This document shows positions 3,920-31,231 of a stretch of 33,848 bases of DNA, in pieces. Source of the stretch: a virus (lineage: Duplodnaviria > Heunggongvirae > Uroviricota > Caudoviricetes); the IMG/VR virus record IMGVR_UViG_2925877141_000002; one strand, 5' to 3'. Both the position numbers and the translations under genes were made by a program. The first letter of the stretch is position 1. Each line of letters starts with the position of its first letter. Below the pieces are notes generated by a model. The model made no database searches. It had not been told where the DNA came from and was given only the letters and a program-made list of their open reading frames with translations.

Positions 3920-4010
3920 TAGACTGGCCCCCTGAATCTCCAGACAACCAATATCACTTAAATAAGTGATAGTCTTAATACTAGTTTTTAGACTAGTCAT
4001 TGGAGAACAG

Positions 4011-4442
4011 ATGATTGATGTCTTAGGGCCGGAGAAACGCAGACGGCGTACCACACAGGAAAAGATCGCAATTGTTCAGCAGAGCTTTGAACCGGGGATG
4101 ACGGTCTCCCTCGTTGCCCGGCAACATGGTGTAGCAGCCAGCCAGTTATTTCTCTGGCGTAAGCAATACCAGGAAGGAAGTCTTACTGCTGTCGCCGCCG
4201 GAGAACAGGTTGTTCCTGCCTCTGAACTTGCTGCCGCCATGAAGCAGATTAAAGAACTCCAGCGCCTGCTCGGCAAGAAAACGATGGAAAATGAACTCCT
4301 CAAAGAAGCCGTTGAATATGGACGGGCAAAAAAGTGGATAGCGCACGCGCCCTTATTGCCCGGGATGGGGAGTAAGCTTAGTCAGCCGTTGTCTCCGGGT
4401 GTCGCGTGCGCAGTTGCACGTCATTCTCAGACGAACCGATGA
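4011..4442 (+). CDS. insC: IS2 OrfA (InsC) variant with altered, extended C-terminus
   Basis: Starts [14 protein letters not shown] with GGAGAACAG RBS; ends ...PGMGSKLSQ... instead of canonical ...PGDGE because of the 1-bp deletion. Confidence 0.8.
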
Positions 4443-5238
4443 CTGGATGGATGGCCGCCGCAGTCGTCACACTGATGATACGGATGTGCTTCTCCGTATA
4501 CACCATGTTATCGGAGAGCTGCCCACGTATGGTTATCGTCGGGTATGGGCGCTGCTTCGCAGACAGGCAGAACTTGATGGTATGCCTGCGATCAATGCCA
4601 AACGTGTTTACCGGATCATGCGCCAGAATGCGCTGTTGCTTGAGCGAAAACCTGCTGTACCGCCATCGAAACGGGCACATACAGGCAGAGTGGCCGTGAA
4701 AGAAAGCAATCAGCGATGGTGCTCTGACGGGTTCGAGTTCTGCTGTGATAACGGAGAGAGACTGCGTGTCACGTTCGCGCTGGACTGCTGTGATCGTGAG
4801 GCACTGCACTGGGCGGTCACTACCGGCGGCTTCAACAGTGAAACAGTACAGGACGTCATGCTGGGAGCGGTGGAACGCCGCTTCGGCAACGATCTTCCGT
4901 CGTCTCCAGTGGAGTGGCTGACGGATAATGGTTCATGCTACCGGGCTAATGAAACACGCCAGTTCGCCCGGATGTTGGGACTTGAACCGAAGAACACGGC
5001 GGTGCGGAGTCCGGAGAGTAACGGAATAGCAGAGAGCTTCGTGAAAACGATAAAGCGTGACTACATCAGTATCATGCCCAAACCAGACGGGTTAACGGCA
5101 GCAAAGAACCTTGCAGAGGCGTTCGAGCATTATAACGAATGGCATCCGCATAGTGCGCTGGGTTATCGCTCGCCACGGGAATATCTGCGGCAGCGGGCTT
5201 GTAATGGGTTAAGTGATAACAGATGTCTGGAAATATAG
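4399..5238 (+). CDS. insD: IS2 OrfB (InsD) transposase body, DDE domain; no longer reachable by -1 frameshift from OrfA
   Basis: 279-aa ORF identical to the distal InsD of copy B; the frame entered by -1 slippage at the A6G site (4328-4334) hits TAA at about 4371. Confidence 0.75.
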
Positions 5239-5249
5239 GGGCAAATCCA

Positions 5250-5447
5250 GCCAGGTTTATCCTCGCAGACAATAAATTTATAAGCGCAGTCCTGAGCAGC
5301 CGGATAATGTTCCAGGAATTGCCAGTGAAATTTTGCTCGAGCACGGCGTTCGTCGCCAGCTTCAATGGCTGTGGCTACAGCCACAGCGCCTTCTTCCCTT
5401 GTTGCCAGTTCGTCAGGAATAGCGACGCAAATAAAGACTTTACTCAT
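5250..5447 (-). pseudogene. Prophage exonuclease, N-terminal 66 codons separated from the rest of the gene by IS2
   Basis: ORF starting at 5447 (MSKVFICVAIPDE...) reads in frame through 5250; removing IS2 and one TSD copy joins it in frame to 3914..1641, restoring an 823-aa protein. Confidence 0.7.
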
Positions 5448-6213: not shown

Positions 6214-6399
6214 TCAACGGGGAAGGAATAACCCCGCCATACTTACCGCCGCGCCATTTTGCGGGTTGCCACAACCGGAAGCGCACGGTCGAATTAAATT
6301 TAACGACACCGTACAGTGAGACGAACTTCGCCGTGCGCTTTCGTGTTGTGTGCCTGCTTTTAACCACGTCAGGCGAGGTGGTATCCTTAAAATCACCAC
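6214..6399 (-). CDS. Hypothetical small protein in the ydfC position
   Basis: 61-aa ORF with GTG start and no clear RBS; position only. Confidence 0.3.
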   Translation of the reverse strand: MVILRIPPRLTWLKAGTQHESARRSSSHCTVSLNLIRPCASGCGNPQNGAAVSMAGLFLPR

Positions 6400-6403
6400 A
6401 GTT

Positions 6404-6979
6404 TTAAGGATTCATTAAGCAATGTCGCAACCACCAATAAATCCGCTTAAGAACATGAAAATTGATTACTGGTATAAAGCGCTTACAGTTGTTGGCGCTG
6501 CGTTGTTTGTCTTTAATGGAACGTCTTTTTTTGACAGATATCCCGTTGTTCCATTGGGTTTTTTGTCCTCCGGCATCTTTTTTATTGGTTTGGGGGAGTG
6601 GATTAATCACCCTCTCAAAGTGAGATTTATTGGCCCTGGAGTTTGGACTCGTGGATATAATCGTTCTTCGTGCGCACTCGGTATCATCTTCGACATACTT
6701 GGTTGTTTCCTGATTGTTACAGGAGTCGTCAAGTTCTTCTGATGTAAAACCGCAAATGGGGCACGTAACGGGAATTTTGAAAAGCGTTTCTCCGGGTTCC
6801 AGAACAAAATTTTCTGCGGTCTGATTTTGCTTCTCATATTTGTGCTCCGCGTCATTGTGAGAGCACATTCTTATTCTGAGTGCCTGTTTAAACTCACTGA
6901 AGCTGAGAGCTTCTTCGCCTTCGGCAAGGCCTTCGAAGTATTCTTCGTAAGCCTTTTCCATGATTGTGTCGAAATCCAT
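6404..6979 (-). CDS. YdfB-like protein, extended (191 codons), with CPICGF zinc-ribbon-like motif; distal two thirds may be a shadow ORF
   Basis: Begins MDFDTIMEKAYEEYFEGLAEGEEAL... coupled to the ydfA stop; distal part is K/N/R-rich and exactly antisense to the plus-strand membrane ORF. Confidence 0.4.
   Translation of the reverse strand: MDFDTIMEKAYEEYFEGLAEGEEALSFSEFKQALRIRMCSHNDAEHKYEKQNQTAENFVLEPGETLFKIPVTCPICGFTSEELDDSCNNQETTKYVEDDTECARRTIISTSPNSRANKSHFERVINPLPQTNKKDAGGQKTQWNNGISVKKRRSIKDKQRSANNCKRFIPVINFHVLKRIYWWLRHCLMNP
6422..6742 (+). CDS. Hypothetical small membrane protein (three predicted TM segments), antisense to the dicB operon
   Basis: 106 aa with hydrophobic stretches ALTVVGAALFVF, GFLSSGIFFIGLG, ALGIIFDILGCFLIVTGVV; AAGGA RBS 11 nt upstream of ATG, lying in the 3' arm of a perfect 10-bp hairpin (6383-6392 / 6402-6411). 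Confidence 0.45.
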   Translation: MSQPPINPLKNMKIDYWYKALTVVGAALFVFNGTSFFDRYPVVPLGFLSSGIFFIGLGEWINHPLKVRFIGPGVWTRGYNRSSCALGIIFDILGCFLIVTGVVKFF

Positions 6980-6980
6980 A

Positions 6981-7136
6981 TCACTCACCTGAGTTTCTTT
7001 CCAGCCAGCGACGGGCACCATTTTCGGTTTTAAACGTTTTGCTTTTGGTATACGTCATCGCGGTGAACGTGCCGTCCTGGTTGGGGAACACGCCACATAC
7101 CAGAGATTCGCTGTTGCCAAGATCGATAGTATCCAT
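6981..7136 (-). CDS. ydfA: YdfA-like small protein
   Basis: 51 aa MDTIDLGNSESLVCGVFPNQDGTFTAMTYTKSKTFKTENGARRWLERNSGE; first gene downstream of the dicA-proximal operator. Confidence 0.7.
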   Translation of the reverse strand: MDTIDLGNSESLVCGVFPNQDGTFTAMTYTKSKTFKTENGARRWLERNSGE

Positions 7137-7250
7137 GCTGACCTCATTTCCCCTTAACGCCGGGGTAGCGGAACTGTTTGCTGAGAACACCGTGCGGTGT
7201 CTTGATGGAAAGTAATTTAGAATAACCTAACATTAGAGGCAAGTGTTTTT

Positions 7251-7268
7251 TGTTAGATTAGTCTAACA
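7251..7268. promoter_or_regulatory. Palindromic operator TGTTAGA-N4-TCTAACA upstream of ydfA (candidate DicA site controlling the dicB operon)
   Basis: Perfect 7-bp inverted repeat; the same half-sites recur in the dicA-dicC intergenic region. Confidence 0.5.
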
Positions 7269-7304
7269 AAAAGAGTGGGCGCAACTAATCACTTGAAAAG
7301 AATG

Positions 7305-7712
7305 TTATTTTATTGATTTATTTTTACGCGCTTTAAGCATTTCTTCGAAGAGTTTGTTGAAGTTTTCTACTCTTGCGCGCATTTCAGACAGCAAGGCTTC
7401 CTGCTCGGAAGATGGAAGAGCATCGAATAATTCGATCAATTCTTTGTGGTTGGGAGTTAGCTCTGTTTCCACATGAAGTTCTTGTGCAGGCACTGGTGCC
7501 TTGTCTTCGTCACCAAACATTAGCCATGTAGGTGAGCACTTCAGAGCATCCGCTAAAGCAAACAATCGTTTTCCGACTGGCTGGGTTTCGTCTCTTTCCC
7601 ATTGTGAAATTGTGACGTGAGCAACTCCAGCGAGGCGCGCAGCTTCTCGTTGTGTTAAGCGTAATTCTTTTCGTCGCGCCAGAACTCGCTGGCCTAGGGT
7701 TCTTGTATCCAT
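7305..7712 (-). CDS. dicA: XRE-family HTH repressor DicA (CI-like)
   Basis: 135 aa MDTRTLGQRVLARRKELRLTQREAARLAGVAHVTISQWERDETQP...; divergent from dicC. Confidence 0.9.
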   Translation of the reverse strand: MDTRTLGQRVLARRKELRLTQREAARLAGVAHVTISQWERDETQPVGKRLFALADALKCSPTWLMFGDEDKAPVPAQELHVETELTPNHKELIELFDALPSSEQEALLSEMRARVENFNKLFEEMLKARKNKSIK

Positions 7713-7761
7713 AGTTAGGTAATTCTAATTTTTCTTGACTTAGATATCCCGCGCACAATAA

Positions 7762-7779
7762 TGTTAGAAAAGTCTAACA
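7762..7779. promoter_or_regulatory. Palindromic operator TGTTAGA-N4-TCTAACA in the dicA/dicC divergent promoter region
   Basis: Perfect inverted repeat between the divergent starts of dicA (7712) and dicC (7793). Confidence 0.5.
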
Positions 7780-7792
7780 AGAGGGGGCTTTG

Positions 7793-8020
7793 ATGCTTAA
7801 AGTTGACGCAATTACTTTTTTTGGCAGCAAAACAAAGCTTGCCAATGCCGCAGGAGTGAGACTGGCAAGTGTTGCTGCTTGGGGGATACTGGTTCCTGAA
7901 GGTCGCGCGATGCGTCTACAGGAGGCATCTGGCGGGGAGCTTCTGTATGATCCCAAGGTTTATGACGAATATCGTAAGACGAAGCGGGCGGGGCGGTTGA
8001 ACAATGAAAATCACTCCTGA
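7793..8020 (+). CDS. dicC: Cro-like regulator DicC
   Basis: MLKVDAITFFGSKTKLANAAGVRLASVAAWG...RKTKRAGRLNNENHS; GAGGGGG RBS 5 nt upstream. Confidence 0.8.
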   Translation: MLKVDAITFFGSKTKLANAAGVRLASVAAWGILVPEGRAMRLQEASGGELLYDPKVYDEYRKTKRAGRLNNENHS

Positions 8021-8525
8021 ACAGGCTCGTGAGGCTCTGGATGCCTGGATATGTCGACCAGGAATGACACAGGAGCAGGCGACGATATTAATCACTGAAG
8101 CATTCTGGGCTTTGAAAGAGCGCCCGAACATCGATGTTCAGCGTGTCACAGATGAAGGTGGCGCGGTTGATCAGCGAGCGCTTGGCGTTAATCGAGTGAA
8201 GATATTCGAACGCTGGAAGGCTATCGACACCAGGGATAAGCGTGAAAAGTTCACGGCGCTAGTGCCTGCAATTATGGAGGCTATCCGGATTAATGATTTC
8301 AGGTTGTATCGTGAAATTAGTGACGGAAAAAGCATCACGTACATGATCGCCGGGTTAAACAAAGAATATGGCGATGTGGTGGAGTCCGGACTGCTTTTTG
8401 CTGATCCTGCCGTAGTGGATCGTGAAACTGACGAACTTATAGAAAAAGCAATTGCTTTCAAACTTGCGTATCGACAGCAATACCAACAAAAAGCTGGATG
8501 GAATTATGAGCCTTCTTTTTGCTGA
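8004..8525 (+). CDS. YdaT-family phage early protein (CII-position)
   Basis: 173 aa, translationally coupled to dicC (overlap 8004-8020); N-terminus and LPAI motif resemble Rac YdaT as recalled. Confidence 0.5.
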   Translation: MKITPEQAREALDAWICRPGMTQEQATILITEAFWALKERPNIDVQRVTDEGGAVDQRALGVNRVKIFERWKAIDTRDKREKFTALVPAIMEAIRINDFRLYREISDGKSITYMIAGLNKEYGDVVESGLLFADPAVVDRETDELIEKAIAFKLAYRQQYQQKAGWNYEPSFC

Positions 8526-12682: not shown

Positions 12683-13732
12683 GTGCGGGTATTACTTCGA
12701 CCTGTTCTGGTACCGGAACTCGGGCTGGTGGTCGTTAAGCCGGGCCGTGAATCCATGCCGGTATTCCACAATACCCGGGTACTGGTGGAGCCGGAACCGA
12801 AAAGCATGCGTAATCTGCCGTCCGGGGTCGTTCCTGCCGTTCGCCAGCCGCTGGTGGAAGACAAAACATTGCTGCCGTTTTTCAGTAACGCACGGGTAAT
12901 TCGTGCTGCTGGTGGTGCTGGTGCATTGTCTGACTGGCTGTTGCGCCATATTAAATCCTGCCAGTGGCCACACGGCGATTATCATCACAGCGAAACCGTT
13001 ATTCACCGTTATGGTACCGGCGCAATGGTGTTGTGCTGGCACTGCGACAACCAGCTGCGTGACCAGACATCCGAATCACTCGAGCAACTTGCTCATCAAA
13101 ACCTGTCAGCATGGATGATTGACGTCATCGGTCACGCAATAAGCGGTACGCAGGAGCGTGAATTATCTCTGGCTGAATTATCCTGGTGGGCGGTCCGCAA
13201 TCAGGTGGCGGACGCGCTACCGGAAGTGGTATTACGTCGCTCGCTGGGATTACCAGCGGAAAAAAACTGCTCGGTGTACCGCGAAAGCGACATCGTACCG
13301 GGAGAGCAGACCGCCACCAGCATATTGAAACAGCGCACAAAAAATCTTGCACCGTTGCCTCACGCCCACCAGCAACAAAACCCATCACAGGAAAAGACGG
13401 TGGTAAGCATCACCGTTGATCCAGAGTCTCCGGAATCTTTCATGAAGCTGCCTAAACGTCACCGTTGGGTTAAGGAGAAATACACACGCTGGGTTAAGAC
13501 ACAGCCGTGTGCTTGCTGCGGTATGCCAGCCGACGATCCGCATCATCTGATTGGTCACGGGCAGGGCGGAATGGGAACCAAAGCACATGATCTCTTTGTG
13601 TTGCCTTTGTGCAGAAAGCATCACGACGAGTTGCATACGGATACCGTGGCATTTGAAGAGAAGTATGGCTCCCAACTGGAGCTGATTTTTCGATTTATCG
13701 ATCGCGCGCTGGCAATTGGTGTGCTGGCCTAA
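12683..13732 (+). CDS. ydfU: DUF968 protein (YdfU-like) with C-terminal HNH-like Cys/His cluster, in the NinG/Rap position
   Basis: 349 aa; C-terminus [43 protein letters not shown]; directly upstream of Q. Confidence 0.7.
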
Positions 13733-15959: not shown

Positions 15960-16166
15960 CTGTATGCGATATCATCTGAAAGTGATGAGTTCCTGTATGC
16001 AGGATATTTACAATCGTAAAAACTACGCTATGATGCTCATAGTGTCAGTTTTTATAAAAATCCTGTTCACGCTAATAGACTGGCCCCCTGAATCTCCAGA
16101 CAACCAATATCACTTAAATAAGTGATAGTCTTAATACTAGTTTTTAGACTAGTCATTGGAGAACAG

Positions 16167-16532
16167 ATGATTGATGTCTTAGGGCCGGAGAAACGCAGAC
16201 GGCGTACCACACAGGAAAAGATCGCAATTGTTCAGCAGAGCTTTGAACCGGGGATGACGGTCTCCCTCGTTGCCCGGCAACATGGTGTAGCAGCCAGCCA
16301 GTTATTTCTCTGGCGTAAGCAATACCAGGAAGGAAGTCTTACTGCTGTCGCCGCCGGAGAACAGGTTGTTCCTGCCTCTGAACTTGCTGCCGCCATGAAG
16401 CAGATTAAAGAACTCCAGCGCCTGCTCGGCAAGAAAACGATGGAAAATGAACTCCTCAAAGAAGCCGTTGAATATGGACGGGCAAAAAAGTGGATAGCGC
16501 ACGCGCCCTTATTGCCCGGGGATGGGGAGTAA
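16167..16532 (+). CDS. insC: IS2 OrfA (InsC)
   Basis: 121 aa [56 protein letters not shown]... Confidence 0.85.
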
Positions 16533-17395
16533 GCTTAGTCAGCCGTTGTCTCCGGGTGTCGCGTGCGCAGTTGCACGTCATTCTCAGACGAACCGATGAC
16601 TGGATGGATGGCCGCCGCAGTCGTCACACTGATGATACGGATGTGCTTCTCCGTATACACCATGTTATCGGAGAGCTGCCCACGTATGGTTATCGTCGGG
16701 TATGGGCGCTGCTTCGCAGACAGGCAGAACTTGATGGTATGCCTGCGATCAATGCCAAACGTGTTTACCGGATCATGCGCCAGAATGCGCTGTTGCTTGA
16801 GCGAAAACCTGCTGTACCGCCATCGAAACGGGCACATACAGGCAGAGTGGCCGTGAAAGAAAGCAATCAGCGATGGTGCTCTGACGGGTTCGAGTTCTGC
16901 TGTGATAACGGAGAGAGACTGCGTGTCACGTTCGCGCTGGACTGCTGTGATCGTGAGGCACTGCACTGGGCGGTCACTACCGGCGGCTTCAACAGTGAAA
17001 CAGTACAGGACGTCATGCTGGGAGCGGTGGAACGCCGCTTCGGCAACGATCTTCCGTCGTCTCCAGTGGAGTGGCTGACGGATAATGGTTCATGCTACCG
17101 GGCTAATGAAACACGCCAGTTCGCCCGGATGTTGGGACTTGAACCGAAGAACACGGCGGTGCGGAGTCCGGAGAGTAACGGAATAGCAGAGAGCTTCGTG
17201 AAAACGATAAAGCGTGACTACATCAGTATCATGCCCAAACCAGACGGGTTAACGGCAGCAAAGAACCTTGCAGAGGCGTTCGAGCATTATAACGAATGGC
17301 ATCCGCATAGTGCGCTGGGTTATCGCTCGCCACGGGAATATCTGCGGCAGCGGGCTTGTAATGGGTTAAGTGATAACAGATGTCTGGAAATATAG
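16490..17395 (+). CDS. insD: IS2 OrfB (InsD), normally expressed as OrfAB by -1 frameshift
   Basis: 301 aa starting [22 protein letters not shown] (GTG immediately after A6G). Confidence 0.85.
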
Positions 17396-17701
17396 GGGCA
17401 AATCCAGCTAAAGAAAACATTGAGATGCAATTTAATGTTGGTAAACATACCAGCCCCAAACGATTTTATTCAATCTGTTTTTATATGAAGATATTTCAAG
17501 TGAATATTGAGAGTATATAATATTATTATTGCACGCAGCTATTATAATATAACAGATTAGTTTAATGATTTGTTTTTTGTGAGTTAAACACATGGTTTTA
17601 TAGTTGTGATGCAATGAGATTTTCCTTATTGTTGAACTGGCGAATATTGATTTTCCACCTATACTTACCTGGTGTAACCCCAATGATATCAGGTGGATAA
17701 T

Positions 17702-22998: not shown

Positions 22999-23196
22999 AT
23001 GGATCGAGAGTTAAAAAATCTGACGCTGAATATCAGTCAACTGGCGGCATTGTCAGGTGTACATCGCCAGACTGCTGCGGCAAGGCTGCAAAATCTACCC
23101 GTTGCAGGGGGGCATGAAAGCAACCTCAAGCTTTATCGGGTGGTTGATATTGTGTCGGCATTTCTGGCATTACCACCGCCGGTTCCGGACCGGTGA
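22999..23196 (+). pseudogene. Terminase small subunit (Nu1-like) N-terminal fragment, 65 codons
   Basis: N-terminal HTH resembles Nu1 (QLAALSGVHRQTAAARLQNLPVAGGHESNLKLY); full-length Nu1-family proteins are about 180 aa; no terminase large subunit gene follows. Confidence 0.5.
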
Positions 23197-23453
23197 TGCC
23201 GTGGATTGACCCTGTTAAGGAGGCTGAGGCCTGGAAAATTCAGATTCGTGGTGGAGCGGCGACAGAATCAGACTGGGTACGTGCAGGTGGTCGTAATCCG
23301 GATGATGTCAAACGTCGGCGCAAGGCCGAAATTGATGAAAACCGCAAGCTGGATCTGGTATTTGATACCGATCCGGCCAGTGATAAAGGAGGCAGCAGTG
23401 CCGCAACGAAACGACAGGAGCCGCAGCACACCGACGACCAGTCCGAAGAATAA
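23193..23453 (+). pseudogene. Probable C-terminal remnant of a portal protein gene
   Basis: 86-aa charged ORF directly upstream of the head protease gene, where portal normally lies; assignment by position. Confidence 0.35.
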
Positions 23454-23466
23454 TTCCTGGTTCAGG

Positions 23467-25425
23467 ATGCAGGCAGGTCACCAGAGTGACGCGGATATTT
23501 ATATTTATGACGAGATTGGTTTCTGGGGTGTTACAGCGAAGCAGTTTATCAGTGATCTGAATGCACTGGGCGATATCACCCACATTAATCTCCATATTAA
23601 TTCACCGGGTGGCGATGTCTTTGAAGGCATCGCCATTTTTAATGCACTGAAAACACATGGTGCGTCCATTACCGTTTATGTCGACGGTGTGGCGGCGTCA
23701 ATGGCGTCGGTCATTGCGATGGTGGGAAACCCGGTCATTATGCCGGAAAACTCCTTCATGATGATTCATAAACCATTTGGCTTTACGGGCGGTGATGCGG
23801 AGGACATGCGCACCTATGCCGACCTGCTCGATAAAGTTGAGGCGGTTCTGTTACCCGCTTATGCACAGAAAACCGGGAAAACCACCGATGAAATTGCTGC
23901 CATGCTGGCGGATGAGACCTGGATGTCCGGTGCCGAATGTCTGGCACAGGGATTTGCTGATCAGGTGACACCAGCCGTTAAGGCAATGGCATGTATTCAG
24001 TCAAAACGTACAGAGGAATTTAAAAAGATGCCGGAATCCATTCGAAACATGATTACTCCGCCACGCAACAGTGCTCCACGCGTACAGGATGATGAACCTG
24101 CAGCCTCCCGGACGCCAGTGCAGGCAGCAGCACCCGTGGTGGATGAAAACAGTATCCGTGCGCAGGTACTGGCAGAGCAAAAAGCGCGTGTAAACGGTAT
24201 TAATGATCTGTTTGCCATGTTTGGCGGGCGTTATCAGACGCTGCAGGCCCAGTGTCTTGCCGATCCTGAATGTTCGCTGGAGCAGGCCCGTGAAAAGCTG
24301 TTGAACGAGATGGGGCGCGAGTCCACGCCATCCAATAAAAATACCCCGGCTCATATTTATGCCGGTAACGGTAATTTTGTGGGGGACGGGATTCGCCAGG
24401 CGCTGATGGCGCGTGCCGGATTTGAAAAAACCGAACGTGATAATGTCTACAACGGGATGACCCTGCGTGAATATGCCCGTATGTCACTAACTGAACGGGG
24501 TATTGGGGTTTCCGGTTATAACCCGATGCAGATGGTCGGTGCGGCGTTCACACACAGTACGTCTGACTTCGGTAATATTCTGCTGGATGTTGCGAACAAA
24601 GCCATTCTGCAGGGCTGGGAAGATGCCCCTGAAACCTATGAACAGTGGACGCGGAAAGGTCAGTTGTCTGATTTTAAAATTGCCCATCGTGTGGGTATGG
24701 GGGGCTTCAGTGCTCTACGTCAGGTGCGTGAAGGGGCGGAATATAAATACGTCACCACCGGAGATAAACAGGCCACTATTGCACTGGCGACCTATGGCGA
24801 GCTGTTCAGTATCACCCGTCAGGCCATTATCAATGATGATCTGAATATGCTGACCGATGTCCCGATGAAACTGGGCCGTGCGGCGAAATCCACTATTGCC
24901 GATCTGGTTTATGCCATTCTGACGTCTAACCCGAAAATCTCCACAGATAATGTAAGTCTGTTCGATAAAGCGAAACATGCAAACGTACTGGAGAGCGCTG
25001 CAATGGACGTGGCATCGCTGGATAAAGCCCGCCAGTTGATGCGCGTTCAGAAAGAGGGGGAGCGTCATCTGAATATTCGTCCTGCGTTCGTACTGGTACC
25101 GACGGCGATGGAGTCTGTTGCTAACCAGGTCATTCGCTCCTCAAGTGTCAAGGGGGCTGACATTAACGCCGGTATTATTAACCCGGTGAAAGATTTTGCG
25201 ACCGTTATTGCAGAGCCTCGTCTTGATGATAACAGCCAGACCACCTTCTACCTGGCTGCGTCAAAAGGCTCCGATACGATTGAAGTGGCTTATCTCAACG
25301 GTGTGGATACGCCATATATTGATCAGATGGAGGGCTTCAGTGTGGATGGCGTGACAACGAAAGTGCGTATTGACGCCGGTGTCGCGCCAGTTGATCACCG
25401 CGGTCTGGTGAAATGTACGGCGTAA
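23467..25425 (+). CDS. Prohead protease (ClpP-like) fused to scaffold-like linker and HK97-like major capsid protein
   Basis: 652 aa; N-terminal ClpP-like core (IYIYDEIGFWGV...HINLHINSPGGDVFEGIAIFNAL...ASMASVIAMVG), coiled-coil middle, capsid-like C-terminus. Confidence 0.75.
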   Translation: MQAGHQSDADIYIYDEIGFWGVTAKQFISDLNALGDITHINLHINSPGGDVFEGIAIFNALKTHGASITVYVDGVAASMASVIAMVGNPVIMPENSFMMIHKPFGFTGGDAEDMRTYADLLDKVEAVLLPAYAQKTGKTTDEIAAMLADETWMSGAECLAQGFADQVTPAVKAMACIQSKRTEEFKKMPESIRNMITPPRNSAPRVQDDEPAASRTPVQAAAPVVDENSIRAQVLAEQKARVNGINDLFAMFGGRYQTLQAQCLADPECSLEQAREKLLNEMGRESTPSNKNTPAHIYAGNGNFVGDGIRQALMARAGFEKTERDNVYNGMTLREYARMSLTERGIGVSGYNPMQMVGAAFTHSTSDFGNILLDVANKAILQGWEDAPETYEQWTRKGQLSDFKIAHRVGMGGFSALRQVREGAEYKYVTTGDKQATIALATYGELFSITRQAIINDDLNMLTDVPMKLGRAAKSTIADLVYAILTSNPKISTDNVSLFDKAKHANVLESAAMDVASLDKARQLMRVQKEGERHLNIRPAFVLVPTAMESVANQVIRSSSVKGADINAGIINPVKDFATVIAEPRLDDNSQTTFYLAASKGSDTIEVAYLNGVDTPYIDQMEGFSVDGVTTKVRIDAGVAPVDHRGLVKCTA

Positions 25426-25448
25426 ACGTCGCAGACAACAACTCTGAT

Positions 25449-25468
25449 GGCCCGTAAGGGCTTTTTTT
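25449..25468 (+). terminator. Terminator-like hairpin after the capsid gene
   Basis: GGCCC-GTAA-GGGC followed by TTTTTTT; a second hairpin AGCCCC-TGAAC-GGGGCT follows at 25481-25497. Confidence 0.5.
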
Positions 25469-25511
25469 GTACCTGAAATCAGCCCCTGAACGGGGCTGTG
25501 CGGAGACAGTT

Positions 25512-25835
25512 ATGGCAAAGAATTTTGTAGAAGAAGGAAAAACGGTGGCGATTGTTGCCAGTGCAGCCATCAGCAGCGGAGATCTGGTGCAGGTGGGCGA
25601 TGTTTTTGCGGTGGCGCTGACCGATATTCCACAGGGTGAAACAGGCGACGGCATGACCGAAGGTGTGTTTATGCTGCCTAAGCTGAAAACGGATGACATG
25701 AAAACGGGTAAGAAGGTTTATCTGAAGTCCGGAAAAGTTCAGCTGACTAACAGCGGCTCTGATCCGCTGGTCGGGGTTGTCTGGGCAGATGCCGGAACCA
25801 GTGCAGAAGAAGTGCCGGTAAAACTCAATGTCTGA
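25512..25835 (+). CDS. Small phage head protein (possible DUF2190/decoration-like)
   Basis: 107 aa MAKNFVEEGKTVAIVASAAISSGDLVQVGDVFAVAL...; GGAGACAG RBS. Confidence 0.5.
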   Translation: MAKNFVEEGKTVAIVASAAISSGDLVQVGDVFAVALTDIPQGETGDGMTEGVFMLPKLKTDDMKTGKKVYLKSGKVQLTNSGSDPLVGVVWADAGTSAEEVPVKLNV

Positions 25836-26103
25836 TCCCTTTTCCCGGCTGGCAGCGCGTATGGATGCTATCACGGTCAGAAAGATGGGAAAGACAGCCT
25901 CGATTAATGATGTCGATATGACTGTGATCCCGGGAGAAACACTGGCAGAGCTGAATGCTCTGTCCGGACCTGCGGTCTCTCTGGTGGTGTTTTCTTCGGG
26001 ATACCGCCCACGGCGCGGGGATCGCGTTGTTTATGACGGACAACAATGGACGGTCACACGGCATGAACGTTTTAACGGTAAGCCAATGATCTTTATTGAG
26101 TAA
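25828..26103 (+). CDS. Head-tail joining/connector-like protein
   Basis: 91 aa, overlaps the preceding gene by 8 nt; assignment by position and size. Confidence 0.45.
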   Translation: MSDPFSRLAARMDAITVRKMGKTASINDVDMTVIPGETLAELNALSGPAVSLVVFSSGYRPRRGDRVVYDGQQWTVTRHERFNGKPMIFIE

Positions 26104-26114
26104 AGAGGTGTGGG

Positions 26115-26525
26115 ATGAAGGGGCTTGAGAATGCCATCCGTAATCTGAACAGCCTTGATACCCGTATGGTGCCACAGGCCAGCGCATGGGCGATAAACCG
26201 TGTGGCACAGAAAGCGGTCTCGGTCGCCACCCGGCAGGTTGCCGGGAATACCGTTGCGGGAGATAACCAGGTGGCGGGTGTGGCTTACAGCCGTGTGTCG
26301 ACTTTCTCCGGGGATTATCTCCGCGTAACTGACAACAAGGGGAAAACGCACGATGTGCTGACCGGAAGTGATGACGGTCGCCACAGCAACATGTCTCTGG
26401 CGTGGGGGGCTGGCGTGCAGTTTAACCCGACCGAATCCGTGGCCATTGATGTCGCTTATGAAGGCTCCGGCAGTGGCGACTGGCGCACTGACGGTTTCAT
26501 CGTGGGTGTCGGTTATAAGTTCTGA
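26115..26525 (+). CDS. lom: Chimeric ORF: N-terminal about 50 aa of a tail-region gene fused to the C-terminal about 85 aa of Lom outer-membrane protein
   Basis: C-terminus SLAWGAGVQFNPTESVAIDVAYEGSGSGDWRTDGFIVGVGYKF closely matches the lambda Lom C-terminus as recalled; N-terminus MKGLENAIRNLNSLDTRMVPQ... is unrelated and has no signal peptide. Confidence 0.7.
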   Translation: MKGLENAIRNLNSLDTRMVPQASAWAINRVAQKAVSVATRQVAGNTVAGDNQVAGVAYSRVSTFSGDYLRVTDNKGKTHDVLTGSDDGRHSNMSLAWGAGVQFNPTESVAIDVAYEGSGSGDWRTDGFIVGVGYKF

Positions 26526-26551
26526 TTAGCCAGGTAACACAGTGTTATGAC

Positions 26552-26579
26552 AGCCCGCCGGTTCAGGCGGGCTTTTTTG
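26552..26579 (+). terminator. Rho-independent terminator between lom and stf
   Basis: AGCCCGCC-GGTTCA-GGCGGGCT followed by TTTTTT. Confidence 0.75.
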
Positions 26580-26589
26580 TGGGGTGAAT

Positions 26590-29500
26590 ATGGCAGTAAA
26601 GATTTCAGGTGTACTGAAAGACGGTGCAGGTAAACCGGTACAGAACTGCACAATCCAGCTGAAAGCAAAACGTAACAGCACCACGGTGGTGGCGAACACG
26701 GTGGCCTCAGAAAATCCGGATGAAGCCGGGCGTTACAGCATGGACGTTGAGTACGGTCAGTACAGCGTTATTCTGTTGGTGGAAGGCTTCCCGCCATCGC
26801 ATGCCGGGACCATCACCGTGTATGAAGACTCACAACCGGGTACGCTGAATGATTTTCTCGGTGCCATGACGGAGGATGATGTCCGTCCGGAGGCACTGCG
26901 CCGCTTTGAACTGATGGTGGAAGAGGTGGCGCGTAACGCGTCCGCAGTGGCGCAGAACACAGCAGCCGCGAAGAAGTCAGCCAGCGATGCCAGCACATCA
27001 GCCCGTGAGGCGGCAACCCATGCGACTGATGCTGCAGGCTCAGCACGTGCAGCCAGCACGTCAGCCGGACAGGCCGCTTCGTCGGCTCAGTCAGCGTCTT
27101 CCAGCGCAGGAACGGCATCAGCAAAGGCTACTGAAGCATCAAAAAGTGCTGCCGCTGCAGAGTCTTCAAAAAGCGCGGCAGCCACCAGTGCCGGTGCAGC
27201 GAAAACGTCAGAAACGAATGCCGCAGCATCACAAAAATCTGCGGCCACTTCTGCATCCACCGCGACCACGAAAGCGTCAGAAGCTGCCACCTCAGCCCGG
27301 GATGCGTCGGCTTCAAAAGTGGCGGCAAAATCATCAGAAACGAGCGCAGCCTCGAGCGCCGGCAGTGCAGCTTCCTCGGCAACGGCGGCAGGAAATTCCG
27401 CGAAGGCCGCAAAAACGTCTGAGACGAATGCGGATAACAGCGCACAGGCGGCAGCAGACTCACAAACTGCATCGGCAAATTCCGCGACAGCAGCCAAAAA
27501 ATCAGAAACCAACGCGAAAAATAGTGAGTCAGCAGCAAAGGTCAGCGAAACCAACGCTAAAGCGTCAGAGAACAAGGCGAAAGAATATCTCGACAAGGTC
27601 GGGGGACTCGTCAGCCCGATGACGCAATACGATTGGCCTGTTGTTACTGCTAGTGAGTCTCTTTACATCAAGATCGCGAAACTTTCCGATCCTGGAACCA
27701 GCAGAAGTCATGTAACGCTAATGGTTACTAACGCTGGTAACTACGGCTCCCCTTACGGAAACATTGACTTTATCGAGATCTCGGCGCGCGGTCTGCCTTC
27801 TTTGCTTAGTGCGGATAATGTTTCTCGTCATCTGAGTATACGCCGCTTAGGGTCAACCGGGCTGACCGATAACAACCAGATGCGTTACGGCCTGGTTAAA
27901 GGTGACGGCTTTATTGAGGTTTGGGCATTCCAGGGTGCGTTTATTAACGACGCAAAGGTTGCGGTGCTGGCGCAGACAACACTAAACACAGAATTATACA
28001 TTCCAGACGGATTTGTTAAGCAAACCGCCGCGCCTTCTGGATATATTGAAGGCAACGTTGTAAGGATTTACGACCAGGTAAACAAGCCGACTAAAGCAGA
28101 TTTGGGTCTTTCTAATGCTATGCTTACAGGCGCTTTCGGTCTTGGCGGTAGCGGGATATCAACAAACGGCAAGATGAGCGATGTAGAGATCTTAAAAGCT
28201 CTGCGTGACAAAGGTGGTCATTTCTGGCGCGGTGATAAGCCGACCGGAAGCACGGCGACCATTTATAGCCACGGTTCTGGTATATTCTCGCGGTGCGGCG
28301 ATACGTGGTCAGCGATCAATATCGACTACTCAACCGCGAAGATTAAGATCTATGCCGGCAACGATGCCCGGCTTAACAACGGGACTTTTAGCGTCAATGA
28401 GCTATACGGCTCGGCAAACAAGCCGTCGAAATCGGATGTTGGACTTGGCAACGTAACGAACGATGCGCAGGTAAAAAAAACCGGCGATACAATGACCGGT
28501 GACTTGACAATCAAAAAAGGTACACCGTCAGTCTTCCTGCGGGCAGACAGTGGAGTCACCGCTTTGCGGTTTTATACTGGCGATAACACAGAGCGCGGCA
28601 TAATCTATGCTGGTCCTAACACTGATTCGCTTGGCGAAGTTCGCATCAGGGCAAAGACAGCAGGGGGGACATCAGGAGGGGATCTTGTTGTTCGTCACGA
28701 CGGGAGGGTTGAAGTCCGTGATCTCACAGTAGCGTATAAAATTAAAAGCAGAACGATTGAGATTGCAAATACCGACACTGACTCATCGGCAACTACGCTA
28801 AGCATCTATGGAGTACAGCACACGCCGTTGGTTTTAACGCGTTCTGGTTCTTCTGAAAATGTGTCCATTGGGTTTAAGTTAGACAATGTGAACCCAAAGT
28901 ATCTTGGAATTGATACTAATGGGGATCTGGCTTTTGGTGAGAGTCCTGATCAGAAACAAAACAGCAAATTGATCACGCAAGCGAAACTCGACAAGGGATT
29001 AACGATTGGTGGTCAACTGGCTTTCAAAGGTACGACAGCGTTTTCAGCCGTTGCTACGTTCAGTGCCGGGATAGCAGGAGCCATCGAGCCGGAAAACATT
29101 GACGGCCAGACGGTTAATCTTAACAACCTGACCATCATCAAGTCAGATGCCGGGGCAGTTAAATACTATATTTGTCCATCCTCTGCAGGTGGTGCAAATA
29201 TCACCAACAAGCCTGACGGCGTAACAGGTAACTTTTTGCTCCGTGTTGAATCGACTCGTAAGGTTAGGGATTCAGATTATGCGAACATGCAAACGCTGAT
29301 TAACAGCGACACAAAACGTATATACGTTCGCTTTGTTGTTAATGGAAACTGGACAGCGTGGAGTCAGGTTGTTGTTTCCGGATGGAATCAGGATGTAACC
29401 GTCAGGTCGTTAACCTCGACGACTCCATCAAAATTAGGTGGCGGGCGGATTGATGTGCTTGGAAGTACGTCAGATTATGGCAGCATGAATTGTACCGTTC

Positions 29501-30369
29501 GTGGTGTTGATAGCACTGGAACCAATTCGGCGTGGTCGGTAGGCACATCAGAAAGCACAGGCAAAATGTTGTTCCTGAAAAACCACAGAAGCAGCGCTCA
29601 AGTGCTGTTAAATGGCGATGATGGAGCGGTTCAACTACTAAGTGGCACTGTTAACGGTGCTACAGCGCAGGCGCTAACCATCAACAAAGATGAGGTTAAC
29701 TCAACTGCCGATTTAGTAATTAGAAAACAAACAGGGACTGGCAATCGTTTTGCTTTACTTAATTCAGGTAATTCAGAACTACCAGTTAGTATCAGGGTGT
29801 GGGGTTCCAGTACTCGACAAAACGTTTTTGAGGTTGGCACGTCTGCTGCGTATCTGTTTTATGCGCAAAAAACAACAGACGGGCAAAACCTTACTGTAAA
29901 CGGAAGTGTTAACTGCACCACACTGAATCAGTCATCAGACCGCAGACTGAAAGAAAATATCGAGATTATCGATAACGCGACTGACGCAATCCGCAAAATT
30001 AATGGATACACGTACACGCTCAAGGAGAATGGGGCACATTGCGCCGGGGTTATAGCACAGGAAGTTGAAGAGGCCATCCCGGAGGCCGTTGGTTCATTCA
30101 TCCATTACGGTGAAGAGTTGCAAGGCCCGACCGTTGACGGCAACGAGCTACGCGAAGAAACGCGCTATCTTAATGTTGACTACGCCGCCGTGACGGGTTT
30201 ACTTGTTCAGGTCGCCCGTGAAACAGATGATCGCGTTACCGCGCTGGAAGAGGAAAACACAACGCTACGTCAAAATCTGGCAACAGCAGGCACCCGGATC
30301 AGCACTCTGGAAAATCAGGTAAGCGAACTGGTTGCACTTGTCCGGCAGTTAACAGGAAGCGAACATTGA
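26590..30369 (+). CDS. stf: Side tail fibre protein (lambda Stf-like N-terminus, Ala/Ser-rich repeats, C-terminal S74-type self-cleaving chaperone domain)
   Basis: N-terminus MAVKISGVLKDGAGKPVQNCTIQLKAKRNSTTV... matches lambda Stf as recalled; C-terminal SDRRLKENIEIID...YTYTLKENG...GVIAQEVEE motif typical of the intramolecular chaperone domain. Confidence 0.9.
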   Translation: MAVKISGVLKDGAGKPVQNCTIQLKAKRNSTTVVANTVASENPDEAGRYSMDVEYGQYSVILLVEGFPPSHAGTITVYEDSQPGTLNDFLGAMTEDDVRPEALRRFELMVEEVARNASAVAQNTAAAKKSASDASTSAREAATHATDAAGSARAASTSAGQAASSAQSASSSAGTASAKATEASKSAAAAESSKSAAATSAGAAKTSETNAAASQKSAATSASTATTKASEAATSARDASASKVAAKSSETSAASSAGSAASSATAAGNSAKAAKTSETNADNSAQAAADSQTASANSATAAKKSETNAKNSESAAKVSETNAKASENKAKEYLDKVGGLVSPMTQYDWPVVTASESLYIKIAKLSDPGTSRSHVTLMVTNAGNYGSPYGNIDFIEISARGLPSLLSADNVSRHLSIRRLGSTGLTDNNQMRYGLVKGDGFIEVWAFQGAFINDAKVAVLAQTTLNTELYIPDGFVKQTAAPSGYIEGNVVRIYDQVNKPTKADLGLSNAMLTGAFGLGGSGISTNGKMSDVEILKALRDKGGHFWRGDKPTGSTATIYSHGSGIFSRCGDTWSAINIDYSTAKIKIYAGNDARLNNGTFSVNELYGSANKPSKSDVGLGNVTNDAQVKKTGDTMTGDLTIKKGTPSVFLRADSGVTALRFYTGDNTERGIIYAGPNTDSLGEVRIRAKTAGGTSGGDLVVRHDGRVEVRDLTVAYKIKSRTIEIANTDTDSSATTLSIYGVQHTPLVLTRSGSSENVSIGFKLDNVNPKYLGIDTNGDLAFGESPDQKQNSKLITQAKLDKGLTIGGQLAFKGTTAFSAVATFSAGIAGAIEPENIDGQTVNLNNLTIIKSDAGAVKYYICPSSAGGANITNKPDGVTGNFLLRVESTRKVRDSDYANMQTLINSDTKRIYVRFVVNGNWTAWSQVVVSGWNQDVTVRSLTSTTPSKLGGGRIDVLGSTSDYGSMNCTVRGVDSTGTNSAWSVGTSESTGKMLFLKNHRSSAQVLLNGDDGAVQLLSGTVNGATAQALTINKDEVNSTADLVIRKQTGTGNRFALLNSGNSELPVSIRVWGSSTRQNVFEVGTSAAYLFYAQKTTDGQNLTVNGSVNCTTLNQSSDRRLKENIEIIDNATDAIRKINGYTYTLKENGAHCAGVIAQEVEEAIPEAVGSFIHYGEELQGPTVDGNELREETRYLNVDYAAVTGLLVQVARETDDRVTALEEENTTLRQNLATAGTRISTLENQVSELVALVRQLTGSEH

Positions 30370-30543
30370 TATCCTTCAAGCTCTGAAGGAGGCTGTTCCC
30401 GGTACGTTCAGACTGTTGTTGAGCTGGAGATCGCAACGGAGGAAGAAAACTCGTTGTTGGAAGCCTGGAAGAAGTATCGGGTGTTGCTGAACCGTGTTGA
30501 TACGTCAACTGCACAGGATATTGAATGGCCAGCACTGCCGTAG
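30370..30543 (+). pseudogene. Tail fibre assembly protein (Tfa) C-terminal remnant, in frame directly after the stf stop
   Basis: Encodes ...[40 protein letters not shown], the conserved Tfa C-terminus; no start codon. Confidence 0.55.
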
Positions 30544-30640: not shown

Positions 30641-31231
30641 TTATATGTCAGGTGTCTGAAGTTTTGCTTTGGCTCTTAAAATGGTTTGCCGCGAGGTTTT
30701 GAATTCCCGGGCAATGGCACTTATACTTACACCTGACTTAATTCGTTCGAATACCACCTGTTTCTGTTCTTCATTTAACACAGGTGGTCGACCAAAACGT
30801 TTCCCTGCGCCGCGGGCTCTTACTATCCCGGAATGAGTGCGTTCAAGTAAAAGGTCTCGTTCAAATTCAGCGACTGCTGAAATTACGTGCATCATCATTT
30901 TTCCTGTTGGACTGGTCAGGTCAATGCCCCCCAATGCTAAGCAATGCACTCTGATACCTGTTTCGGTCAGTTGTTCCACTGTTTTCCTGATATCCATTGC
31001 ATTACAACCAAGGCGATCCAGTTTTGTCACAATCAATTGATCACCACATTTCAGGCGAGCAAGCAACCGGTTAAAACCAGGACGCTCACTGGTTGCTGCT
31101 GAGCCGCTAATGTGTTCTTCGATTATTTGCTGAGGTTTGATTTTAAAACCTGCACTTTCGATTTCCCGGCGTTGATTTTCGGTGGTCTGATCCAGCGTTG
31201 ATATCCGACAGTAAGCAAAAATTCGAGACAT
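30641..31231 (-). CDS. pin: Serine recombinase DNA invertase Pin (Gin/Hin family)
   Basis: 196 aa [20 protein letters not shown]...; catalytic Ser in the N-terminal motif; C-terminal HTH. Confidence 0.9.

What the first reader, a model, noticed from the sequence alone, without database searches (positions are those of the whole stretch)
26115..26525. Tail-gene::lom chimera marks deletion of the whole tail gene cluster
The ORF joins an unrelated N-terminus with no signal peptide to the last 85 residues of Lom, which match lambda Lom nearly residue for residue including the terminal GVGYKF strand. With stf immediately downstream and no tail tube, tape-measure or tip genes, this looks like a deletion scar spanning the tail genes to mid-lom.
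Basis: partly seen in the sequence, partly recalled or inferred. Interest (0 to 1): 0.5.

Follow-up and report, generated by a model that had tools for sequence, protein, structure and literature searches.

The report
Tail-deletion scar in decaying Qin prophage
This 136-codon gene is a leftover junction from an 11.6-kb deletion that removed every tail-shaft gene from a decaying E. coli prophage; this is ordinary prophage decay, but many unrelated prophages turn out to have broken at the same few bases of lom.

Summary
ORF 26115-26525 fuses the first 53 codons of a lambda-Z-type tail-completion gene, in frame, to codons 117-199 of lom.

Compared with an intact Qin-type prophage at the same chromosomal site (E. 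coli 118UI), the window lacks 11,599 bp. The missing block is the rest of Z, then U, V, G, T, H, M, L, K, I and J, and lom codons 1-116. The joint is at 26272-26273, on a shared 2-nt TG.

The junction occurs in 2 of 5,426 complete E. coli genomes and in no phage record. The fusion has no signal peptide and only about half of the Lom profile. It is a non-functional scar that RefSeq names as an Ail/Lom outer-membrane protein.

Two details were wrong. The Lom part is 83 residues, not 85. It is 55% identical to lambda's own Lom, and 96-98% identical to Lom of other lambdoid phages.

The prophage carries a second scar (terminase small subunit joined to portal) and two IS2 copies, so it is defective several times over. 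K-12 Rac (ynaA::lomR') carries a scar of the same kind.

One result was unexpected and is unexplained. At least 23 independent X::lom fusions with different left partners all break at lom codons 116-119.

The parts
26115..26525 (+). Chimeric ORF (136 aa; RefSeq WP_134778598.1): gpZ(1-53)::Lom(117-199)
26115..26273 (+). First 53 codons of the Z-type tail-completion gene (PF06763 positions 1-53 of 190), with its native ribosome-binding site just upstream
   Evidence: 100% identical to L002 20716-20874; Pfam; alignment with the intact gpZ and lambda Z
26272..26273 (.). Deletion joint: a TG dinucleotide present in both parental sequences (2-nt microhomology)
   Evidence: Three-way alignment of left parent, window and right parent
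26274..26525 (+). lom codons 117-199 plus the stop codon, about the C-terminal half of the Ail/Lom profile including the terminal GVGYKF
   Evidence: 98.1% identical to L002 32474-32725; Pfam Ail_Lom up to position 199; tblastn against phages 96-98%
26552..26573 (+). Intrinsic-terminator-like hairpin plus T run, in the position of the native lom terminator, retained
   Evidence: same sequence and position after lom in L002
26584..30369 (+). Side tail fibre gene stf: an uninterrupted 1261-codon ORF with phage_tail_N at the N-terminus and a Peptidase_S74 chaperone domain at the C-terminus. It is now orphaned, with no tail to attach to.
25828..26103 (+). Head-tail connector gene (Gifsy-2 / Phage_attach family), the last intact gene before the scar
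25512..25835 (+). Head cement/decoration gene (Phage_cement_2, DUF2190)
23398..25425 (+). ClpP-like prohead protease / major capsid fusion gene, intact
22999..23190 (+). N-terminal fragment of the small-terminase-like gene (DUF1441), left partner of the second scar
23183..23184 (.). Second deletion joint (DUF1441 small-terminase gene joined to portal). It removes 3,859 bp relative to L002, shows a 2-nt TT microhomology, and is out of frame.
30418..30543 (+). Remnant of the tail-fibre assembly gene tfa, lacking its N-terminus
   Evidence: RefSeq annotation of the identical stretch
30641..31231 (-). pinQ serine invertase, followed by ydfK, ynfT and the split ydfJ that mark the Qin attachment site

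Best explanation
The ORF is the scar of one illegitimate deletion of about 11.6 kb in a Qin-type lambdoid prophage inserted in ydfJ of E. coli.

The deletion joined codon 53 of the Z-type tail-completion gene to codon 117 of lom across a shared TG dinucleotide. The joint happens to be in frame. It removed every tail-shaft, tape-measure, baseplate and tip gene, plus the signal peptide and about the first half of the Lom barrel.

Shown here:
- the two parental halves;
- the exact joint and the extent of the loss;
- the narrow, E. coli-only distribution of the junction.

Inferred, not measured:
- If the fusion is made at all, it stays in the cytoplasm and has no function. It keeps Z's ribosome-binding site but has no promoter-like site of its own nearby, no export signal, and only about half of the 199-position Ail/Lom profile.
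- The event was RecA-independent end-joining or replication slippage on 2-nt microhomology.

The prophage also has a second deletion that removes the large terminase gene and most of the portal gene, and it carries two IS2 insertions. It therefore cannot make particles.
For: - The window is collinear with an intact prophage at the same locus on both sides of the joint, at 100% (3,091 nt) and 98.1% (310 nt) identity.
- None of the deleted 11.6 kb is present anywhere in the window, by blastn or by tblastn with the twelve tail-region proteins.
- Pfam finds a gpZ half (profile positions 1-53 of 190) and an Ail_Lom half ending at position 199 of 199.
- The junction is in only 2 of 5,426 complete E. 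coli genomes. The exact protein is recorded in 61 blocks of the assembly index; the 24 contigs read carry it, and the three distinct places shown have the same neighbouring genes.
- No phage record has the fusion.
- A frameshifted copy (P0010) sits in the same 90% cluster, as expected if the ORF is not under selection.
- The N-terminus has no hydrophobic signal core.
- No promoter-like site lies in 25300-26800.
- Other strains show different deletions in the same gene block (L004, L005).
- K-12 Rac and K-12 Qin show the same type of scar.
Against: - The right flank is only 98.1% identical to the reference prophage, and the stf body differs. The true parent was therefore not 118UI's prophage but a mosaic relative, and no exact parent was recovered.
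- The in-frame joint and the retained ribosome-binding site mean that a stable fusion protein cannot be excluded without expression data.
- P0007 has the same protein-level joint but five substitutions, all in the Lom part. I could not fetch its DNA.
- The joint lies in a recurrent lom breakpoint, so the break was probably not at a random position.
Confidence: 0.93

Rival explanations
1. The joint was not a random accident. It was directed by a fragile or enzyme-targeted site in lom (nt 347-357), for example a nuclease, topoisomerase or gyrase cleavage site, a replication pause, or an IS inserted there and later excised together with flanking DNA by microhomology end-joining. This changes the cause of the scar, not the conclusion that it is a scar.
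For: - Five fusions with different left partners (Z, U, cement, Nu1, W) start lom homology at the same nucleotide (nt 347). In the four whose left parent aligns up to the joint, that parent ends in TG, as lom does; for Nu1 the lambda reference diverges before the joint. Three more fusions (J, A, H) start at nt 348-354.
- In an exhaustive HMMER scan with full-length Lom, 13 of 47 foreign::Lom representatives begin at Lom 116-119. Binomial p is 6e-10 over codons 17-154 and 7e-6 over codons 100-135.
- One fusion in the opposite direction, Lom(1-116)::Stf (P0344), uses the same codon.
- A microhomology end-joining polymerase (IEE) that promotes IS629 excision, with associated genomic deletions, is described in EHEC (PMC9943667, abstract).
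Against: - No Chi site lies near the joint.
- The local fold is no better than shuffled sequence (z = -0.72).
- By eye, the site shows no invertase-type dyad. An inverted-repeat scan of the stf-pin regions of L002 and the window found no invertase crossover sites to compare it with.
- No IS remnant was seen at any of the eight joints mapped at DNA level.
- The tail following the one Lom N-terminal fragment that ends at residue 120 (P0251) matches nothing in the plasmid collection, where common IS elements would be expected.
- The census counts predicted proteins clustered at 50% identity, not events on a phylogeny.
- The 4-codon bin was chosen after seeing the data.
Confidence: 0.5
2. The fusion is a real, selected gene: a new protein made by domain shuffling that uses the Lom C-terminus for some function.
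For: - The joint is in frame, with the native Z ribosome-binding site and the native lom terminator.
- RefSeq annotates it as a normal protein.
- It is present in dozens of assemblies.
Against: - All carriers examined share the same prophage context, including the second scar, which points to one clone rather than a spreading gene.
- It is absent from 50,697 phage records and from 5,424 of 5,426 complete E. coli genomes.
- A frameshifted variant exists.
- The fusion retains only positions 117-199 of the 199-position Ail_Lom profile and has no signal peptide.
- Dozens of other X::Lom fusions with arbitrary partners, some apparently out-of-frame translations, show that such ORFs arise as by-products.
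Confidence: 0.03
3. The junction is an assembly artefact caused by repeated prophage sequence.
For: E. coli genomes carry several lambdoid prophages with shared repeats. The lom segment has a median of 3 and up to 15 copies per genome.
Against: - Z and lom share no long repeat at the joint, only TG.
- The same junction is present in two independently finished chromosomes from Argentina and the USA, and the exact protein is recorded in 61 assembly blocks from NCBI and Logan.
Confidence: 0.01
4. The joint arose by recombination between two different resident prophages (Z side from one, lom-stf side from another) rather than by deletion within one prophage.
For: The flanks differ in identity to the reference (100% against 98.1%), and the stf body is unrelated to that of 118UI.
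Against: - Everything downstream of stf (tfa remnant, pinQ, ydfK, ynfT, ydfJ) is again collinear with, and 98.2% identical to, the same Qin locus.
- stf genes are notoriously mosaic, so a Qin variant with a different stf is the simpler parent.
- A cross between two prophages would also delete or invert the chromosome between them.
Confidence: 0.05

Closest known systems
ynaA::lomR' junction in the cryptic prophage Rac of E. coli K-12 MG1655
   Same: It is a tail-gene fragment (tape-measure domain, ynaA) abutting an N-terminally truncated lom, followed by stf, tfa and pin, in a tail-less lambdoid remnant. It is the same kind of scar at the same place in the gene order.
   Different: Lom homology starts at lom nt 203 (codon 68), not nt 347, and the fusion is out of frame. 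lomR' is additionally split by IS5 at about nt 411. The left partner is H rather than Z.
Cryptic prophage Qin of E. coli K-12 (nohA-stfQ junction)
   Same: It sits at the same ydfJ integration site and shares marker genes: pinQ, ydfK, ynfT, cspI, gnsB, rzpQ, rrrQ.
   Different: In K-12 the annotation runs straight from the packaging gene nohA into stfQ, with no head, tail or lom genes between them. The window's copy still has capsid, cement and connector genes plus the Z::lom joint, so it represents a different and less advanced decay path.
Lambda Lom / Ail / OmpX family (PF06316; PDB 9wso, 1qj8, 3qra)
   Same: The C-terminal 83 residues are clearly homologous, ending in the conserved AYEGSGSGDWRTDGFIVGVGYKF.
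   Different: The signal peptide and profile positions 1-116 are missing, and identity to lambda's own Lom is only 55%. From my general knowledge, members of this family fold as eight-stranded barrels. This fragment could not form one.
Lambda gpZ tail-completion protein (PF06763)
   Same: Residues 1-53 are the N-terminus of a gpZ homologue: 53/53 identical to the intact Qin-type gpZ, and BLASTP E 6e-9 against lambda Z.
   Different: 139 of the 192 residues are missing.
Microhomology-mediated genomic deletions in E. coli, such as those linked to IS629 excision promoted by IEE (PMC9943667)
   Same: The joint shows very short microhomology, and a multi-kb loss occurred inside a prophage.
   Different: No IS or IS remnant lies at this joint. 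Whether the carrier strains have IEE was not examined.

Membership tests
Ail/Lom family outer-membrane beta-barrel protein (the RefSeq name for this ORF) | N-terminal Sec signal peptide for export | tested here: not met
   The native Lom signal (MRKLYAAILSAAICLAVSGAPAWA) is deleted. The maximum 10-residue hydropathy in the first 40 residues is 0.92, against 2.79 in Lom.
Ail/Lom family outer-membrane beta-barrel protein (the RefSeq name for this ORF) | Complete barrel domain (PF06316 positions about 1-199) | tested here: not met
   True Lom sequence covers only profile positions 117-199.
Ail/Lom family outer-membrane beta-barrel protein (the RefSeq name for this ORF) | Conserved C-terminal strand ending in an aromatic residue (GVGYKF) | tested here: met
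gpZ tail-completion protein (PF06763) | Full-length domain of about 190 residues, encoded next to U and V tail genes | tested here: not met
   Only profile positions 1-53 are present, and no U or V gene is in the window.
Deletion scar (fusion pseudogene) in a defective lambdoid prophage | Both halves collinear with adjacent parts of an intact relative, with the intervening genes absent | tested here: met
Deletion scar (fusion pseudogene) in a defective lambdoid prophage | The fusion architecture is absent from functional phages and confined to one lineage | tested here: met
   0 of 50,697 phage records; 2 of 5,426 complete genomes; the places examined share the same context
Deletion scar (fusion pseudogene) in a defective lambdoid prophage | No purifying selection on the fusion ORF | tested here: inconclusive
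   One frameshifted copy (P0010) and one variant with five substitutions (P0007) exist. There are too few diverged copies for a dN/dS estimate.
Prophage Qin (ydfJ-inserted lambdoid prophage of E. coli) | Insertion splitting ydfJ, with pinQ-ydfK-ynfT at the right end and cspI, gnsB, rzpQ, rrrQ and dicB inside | tested here: met
   RefSeq annotation of the near-identical stretch compared with K-12 Qin
Site-specific (invertase or integrase) deletion | A recombinase recognition site, such as a hix/gix-type dyad, at both break points | tested here: inconclusive
   By eye, neither parental site shows a dyad. An inverted-repeat scan of the stf-pin regions found no crossover sites to compare with. No formal motif search was run. 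The shared TG alone is not diagnostic.

The most novel reading that the evidence does not exclude
lom contains a previously undescribed deletion hot spot of about 10 nt (GCGA|TGGCGGGT(A/G)|TGGCT, codons 116-119). Independent lambdoid prophages of E. coli have broken and rejoined there repeatedly, with partners from ParB and Nu1 through to J. The window's scar would be one instance.

If this reflects a sequence-specific break or stall (nuclease, topoisomerase, transposase pseudo-end or replication pause), it would be a defined cis-acting driver of prophage tail loss and domestication.
Probability: 0.4. Interest if true: 0.55.

Novelty: new member of a known kind. Interest (0 to 1): 0.25.

Why it matters
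The scar itself matters mainly for annotation. RefSeq calls the ORF an Ail/Lom outer-membrane protein, but it is a gpZ::Lom fusion pseudogene. The prophage around it lacks tail, large-terminase and portal genes and cannot form particles.

It also gives a dated, base-exact snapshot of one decay path of Qin, which can be set beside the different paths in K-12 and other strains.

The wider point is the recurrent lom breakpoint. If confirmed at the DNA level on independent lineages, it would mean that prophage decay is partly channelled by fragile sites rather than by random deletion. That would be directly testable with a lom cassette in a deletion-trapping assay.

Tried and rejected
- **Chi-directed end protection.** There are 8 Chi sites in the window, none within 6 kb of the joint and none in lom. 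By my reasoning, the orientation would also be wrong for protecting the lom 3' side.
- **Hairpin-induced breakage.** The ssDNA fold of lom nt 295-415 is no better than shuffled sequence (z = -0.72).
- **Pin invertase acting on a quasi-site.** By eye, the lom site has no AAACC-NN-GGTTT-type dyad. An inverted-repeat scan of the stf-pin regions gave no crossover sites to compare with.
- **IS footprint.** The foreign N-terminus shared by P0033 and P0156 looked like IS read-through, but it maps about 195 nt upstream of cosN, next to the ynfO-like gene. The tail of P0251 matches nothing in the plasmid collection.
- **K-12 Rac lomR' as another example of the hot spot.** It is not one; its joint is at lom nt 203.
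- **Small RNA 24B_1 as a reason to retain the lom 3' side.** It lies in the lom-to-next-gene spacer of phage Phi24B (PMC4426718), a different spacer from the one here. I did not pursue it.
- **First two protein censuses.** These were biased: the search for homologous proteins returned only targets of about 0.56-1.75 times the query length, and my first query began at the hot spot. The claim therefore rests on the exhaustive scan.
- **Gyrase consensus.** I compared it by eye only, and the fit was poor and inconclusive.

Full report
**What is there.** The ORF at 26115-26525 (+) is real: 136 codons, an ATG preceded by AGAGGTG, and a TGA stop followed by a GC-rich hairpin and T run at 26552-26573. 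Pfam splits it into two unrelated halves. Residues 1-53 match Minor_tail_Z (PF06763) positions 1-53 of 190. The C-terminal part matches Ail_Lom (PF06316) through position 199 of 199. The next ORF, starting 59 nt downstream at 26584, is a 1261-codon side tail fibre gene with phage_tail_N and a C-terminal Peptidase_S74 chaperone domain.

**Where the window comes from.** The window is almost identical to E. coli M23917 (NZ_CP133913.1, 2199380-2233227). The two differ only in IS content: M23917 has an IS3 that the window lacks, and the window has a second IS2. It is a lambdoid prophage inserted in ydfJ, with pinQ, ydfK, ynfT, cspI, gnsB, rzpQ, rrrQ, hokD and dicB. That is the Qin locus of K-12.

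**Mapping the deletion.** Strain 118UI carries an apparently complete prophage at the same site (L002). Its late gene order is DUF1441 small-terminase gene, large terminase, portal, ClpP-capsid fusion, cement, connector, Z, U, V, G, T, H, M, L, K, I, J, lom, stf, tfa, pinQ.
- Window 23183-26273 equals L002 17784-20874 with no mismatch in 3,091 nt.
- Window 26272-26581 equals L002 32472-32781 at 98.1%.
- The two alignments overlap by the dinucleotide TG, which both parents have at the break: left ...AACCAGGTG|AAAGGG, right ...TATGCGATG|GCGGGT.
- The loss is 11,599 bp (L002 20875-32473).
- On the left, 159 nt (53 codons) of Z remain. On the right, lom resumes at the first base of codon 117, so the fusion is in frame.
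- blastn of the deleted block against the window finds nothing. tblastn with all twelve tail-region proteins finds only Z 1-53 and Lom 116-199 at the chimera.

**Corrections to the observation.**
- The Lom part is 83 residues, not 85.
- It is only 55% identical (46/84) to lambda's own Lom. Near-identity is confined to the last 24 residues.
- It is 96-98% identical to Lom of mEp460, Stx1/Stx2 phages, cdtI phage and others.
- The N-terminus is the first 53 residues of gpZ. It is 53/53 identical to the intact relative and recognisably similar to lambda Z (BLASTP E 6e-9).

**Is it a gene or a scar?**
- The junction is in 2 of 5,426 complete E. coli genomes: M23917 from Argentina and EcPNK006 from the USA, both urine isolates.
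- The exact protein is recorded in 61 blocks of the assembly index. The 24 contigs read carry it, and the three distinct places shown all have the same neighbouring genes.
- None of 50,697 phage records has a place covering 80% or more of the protein. Its two halves always hit separate genes.
- The 90% cluster has ten members, all from E. coli, including a frameshifted copy (P0010).
- The fusion has lost Lom's signal peptide. The hydropathy maximum is 0.92, against 2.79 in native Lom.
- It has lost Ail_Lom profile positions 1-116. The family (OmpX, Ail, lambda Lom; PDB 1qj8, 3qra, 9wso) forms eight-stranded barrels, which I state from general knowledge rather than from a test here.
- No sigma-70-like promoter lies in 25300-26800, so any expression would depend on late-operon read-through.

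I conclude that it is a non-functional deletion scar and that the RefSeq name 'Ail/Lom family outer membrane beta-barrel protein' is misleading. Expression and localisation were not measured.

**The prophage is defective in other ways.**
- A second joint at 23183/23184 fuses the DUF1441 small-terminase gene to the 3' end of the portal gene. Relative to L002, 3,859 bp are lost, the microhomology is TT, and a stop follows two codons after the joint. This removes the large terminase gene and most of the portal gene.
- IS2 copies sit at 3920-5251, inside the exonuclease gene, and at 16076-17408.
- The tfa gene is reduced to a 126-nt remnant.

Other strains show different deletions in the same block: connector::J in strain 573, and a further variant at the DLP12 locus. 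K-12 Rac has a tape-measure::lom scar at lom nt 203 plus an IS5. K-12 Qin runs from nohA straight into stfQ. The finding is therefore an ordinary instance of a well-known process.

**Mechanism.** A 2-nt microhomology with no other similarity between the break sites is the signature of RecA-independent illegitimate recombination, by end-joining or template slippage. This is an inference from the joint and was not observed directly.

**An unexpected pattern.** The protein search returned dozens of other X::Lom fusions. I fetched DNA for seven of them.
- Five fusions, counting the window, start lom homology at the same nucleotide, nt 347. They are Z (the window), U (L010), cement (L011), Nu1 (L012) and W (L013). 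In the four whose left parent aligns up to the joint, that parent ends in TG, as lom does; for Nu1 the lambda reference diverges before the joint.
- Three start at nt 348-354, with 1-4 nt of microhomology. They are J (L014), terminase A (L015) and tape measure H (L016).

My first query began at that point, and the tool returned only targets of about 0.56-1.75 times the query length. I therefore repeated the census with an exhaustive HMMER scan of 1.84 billion representatives, using full-length Lom as the query.
- Of 47 representatives with a foreign N-terminus and a Lom part reaching the C-terminus, 13 begin at Lom 116-119.
- The flanks hold 9 in codons 100-115 and 8 in codons 120-135.
- Binomial p is 6e-10 over codons 17-154 and 7e-6 over codons 100-135. 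The window of codons was chosen after seeing the data.

Adding distinct junctions gives at least 23 different partners at 116-119. They are two types of Z, U, V, W, Nu1, a small-terminase-like protein, large terminase, portal, cement, capsid E, ClpP-capsid, H, three sites in J, ParB_N, a weak YdaS-like match, and several unidentified.

In alleles with GTG at codon 119 the break is usually just after ATG116. All nine such fusions have V or L before A117, which I read as an NTG codon. In alleles with ATG at codon 119 the break is usually at GGTA|TGGCT. One fusion in the other direction, Lom(1-116)::Stf (P0344), uses the same codon.

I found no Chi site, no significant hairpin, no invertase-type dyad (by eye; no crossover sites were found to compare with) and no IS remnant. 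The cause is unexplained.

Caveats:
- The census counts predicted proteins clustered at 50% identity, not events placed on a phylogeny.
- A few left-hand break points also recur: J 'NSTPVLD', stf 'PPSHAGTIT', and a site about 195 nt upstream of cosN. Clumping may therefore be a general feature of these deletions rather than something special to lom.

**Verdict.** As a deletion scar it is a new member of a well-known kind, and of low interest in itself. The recurrent lom breakpoint is the only part that might interest a specialist, and it needs a DNA-level census to be believed.

Noticed in passing
window 26272-26283, equivalent to lom nt 347-357; loci L010-L016; proteins P0013-P0261: At least 23 independent X::lom fusions with different left partners all break at lom codons 116-119. 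Five mapped at DNA level, counting the window, start lom homology at the same nucleotide. In an exhaustive scan, 13 of 47 representatives fall in this 4-codon bin (p 6e-10). No mechanism was found.
   Followed up: partly
window 23183-23184 (context 22999-23453): A second deletion scar fuses the DUF1441 small-terminase gene, out of frame, to the 3' end of the portal gene. Relative to strain 118UI, 3,859 bp are lost, the microhomology is TT, and the large terminase gene and most of the portal gene are gone.
   Followed up: yes
window 3920-5251 and 16076-17408: Two IS2 copies (99.9% identical) with 5-bp target duplications (GCCAG, GCTAA). The first interrupts the exonuclease gene. The closest finished genome (M23917) lacks the second IS2 and instead has an IS3 in the lipocalin gene, so the window comes from a sister strain.
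   Followed up: partly
window 26584-30369 and 30418-30543: stf is one uninterrupted 1261-codon ORF with a C-terminal Peptidase_S74 self-cleaving chaperone domain, and the tfa gene after it is reduced to a 126-nt remnant. RefSeq annotates the identical DNA as a truncated pseudogene plus a separate 'tail fiber domain' protein.
   Followed up: partly
window 26115-26525: RefSeq (WP_134778598.1) names the fusion 'Ail/Lom family outer membrane beta-barrel protein'. It lacks the signal peptide and half of the barrel domain, so it should be flagged as a fusion pseudogene.
   Followed up: yes
proteins P0007 and P0010 (same 90% cluster as the window's ORF): P0010 is a frameshifted copy of the fusion. 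P0007 has the same joint at protein level but five substitutions, all in the Lom part, which match residues seen in other lom alleles. This suggests gene conversion from another resident lom copy, or a second event. Its DNA could not be fetched.
   Followed up: partly
window 12724-13373, also 2202, 11058 and 19911: Eight Chi sites (GCTGGTGG) against 0.94 expected from shuffles. Five are clustered in the ydfU (DUF968) region, and none lies in the late region from 20 kb onwards.
   Followed up: no
proteins P0017, P0032, P0266 (J); P0058, P0247 (stf); P0033, P0156 (ynfO-proximal, L015 about 2096): Some left-hand break points also recur, each with different lom partners: J '...NSTPVLD', stf '...PPSHAGTIT', and a site about 195 nt upstream of cosN. 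The stf::lom fusions imply duplications or rearrangements rather than simple deletions.
   Followed up: no
L018 (K-12 Rac, 6388-8041): In K-12 Rac, lom homology starts at lom nt 203, directly after the tape-measure fragment ynaA, and IS5Y is inserted at lom nt 411-416. So lomR' is both a deletion scar and an IS target.
   Followed up: yes
tool behaviour: In these three searches, the search for homologous proteins returned only targets of about 0.56-1.75 times the query length. Censuses of fusion proteins made with it are therefore length-biased.
   Followed up: yes
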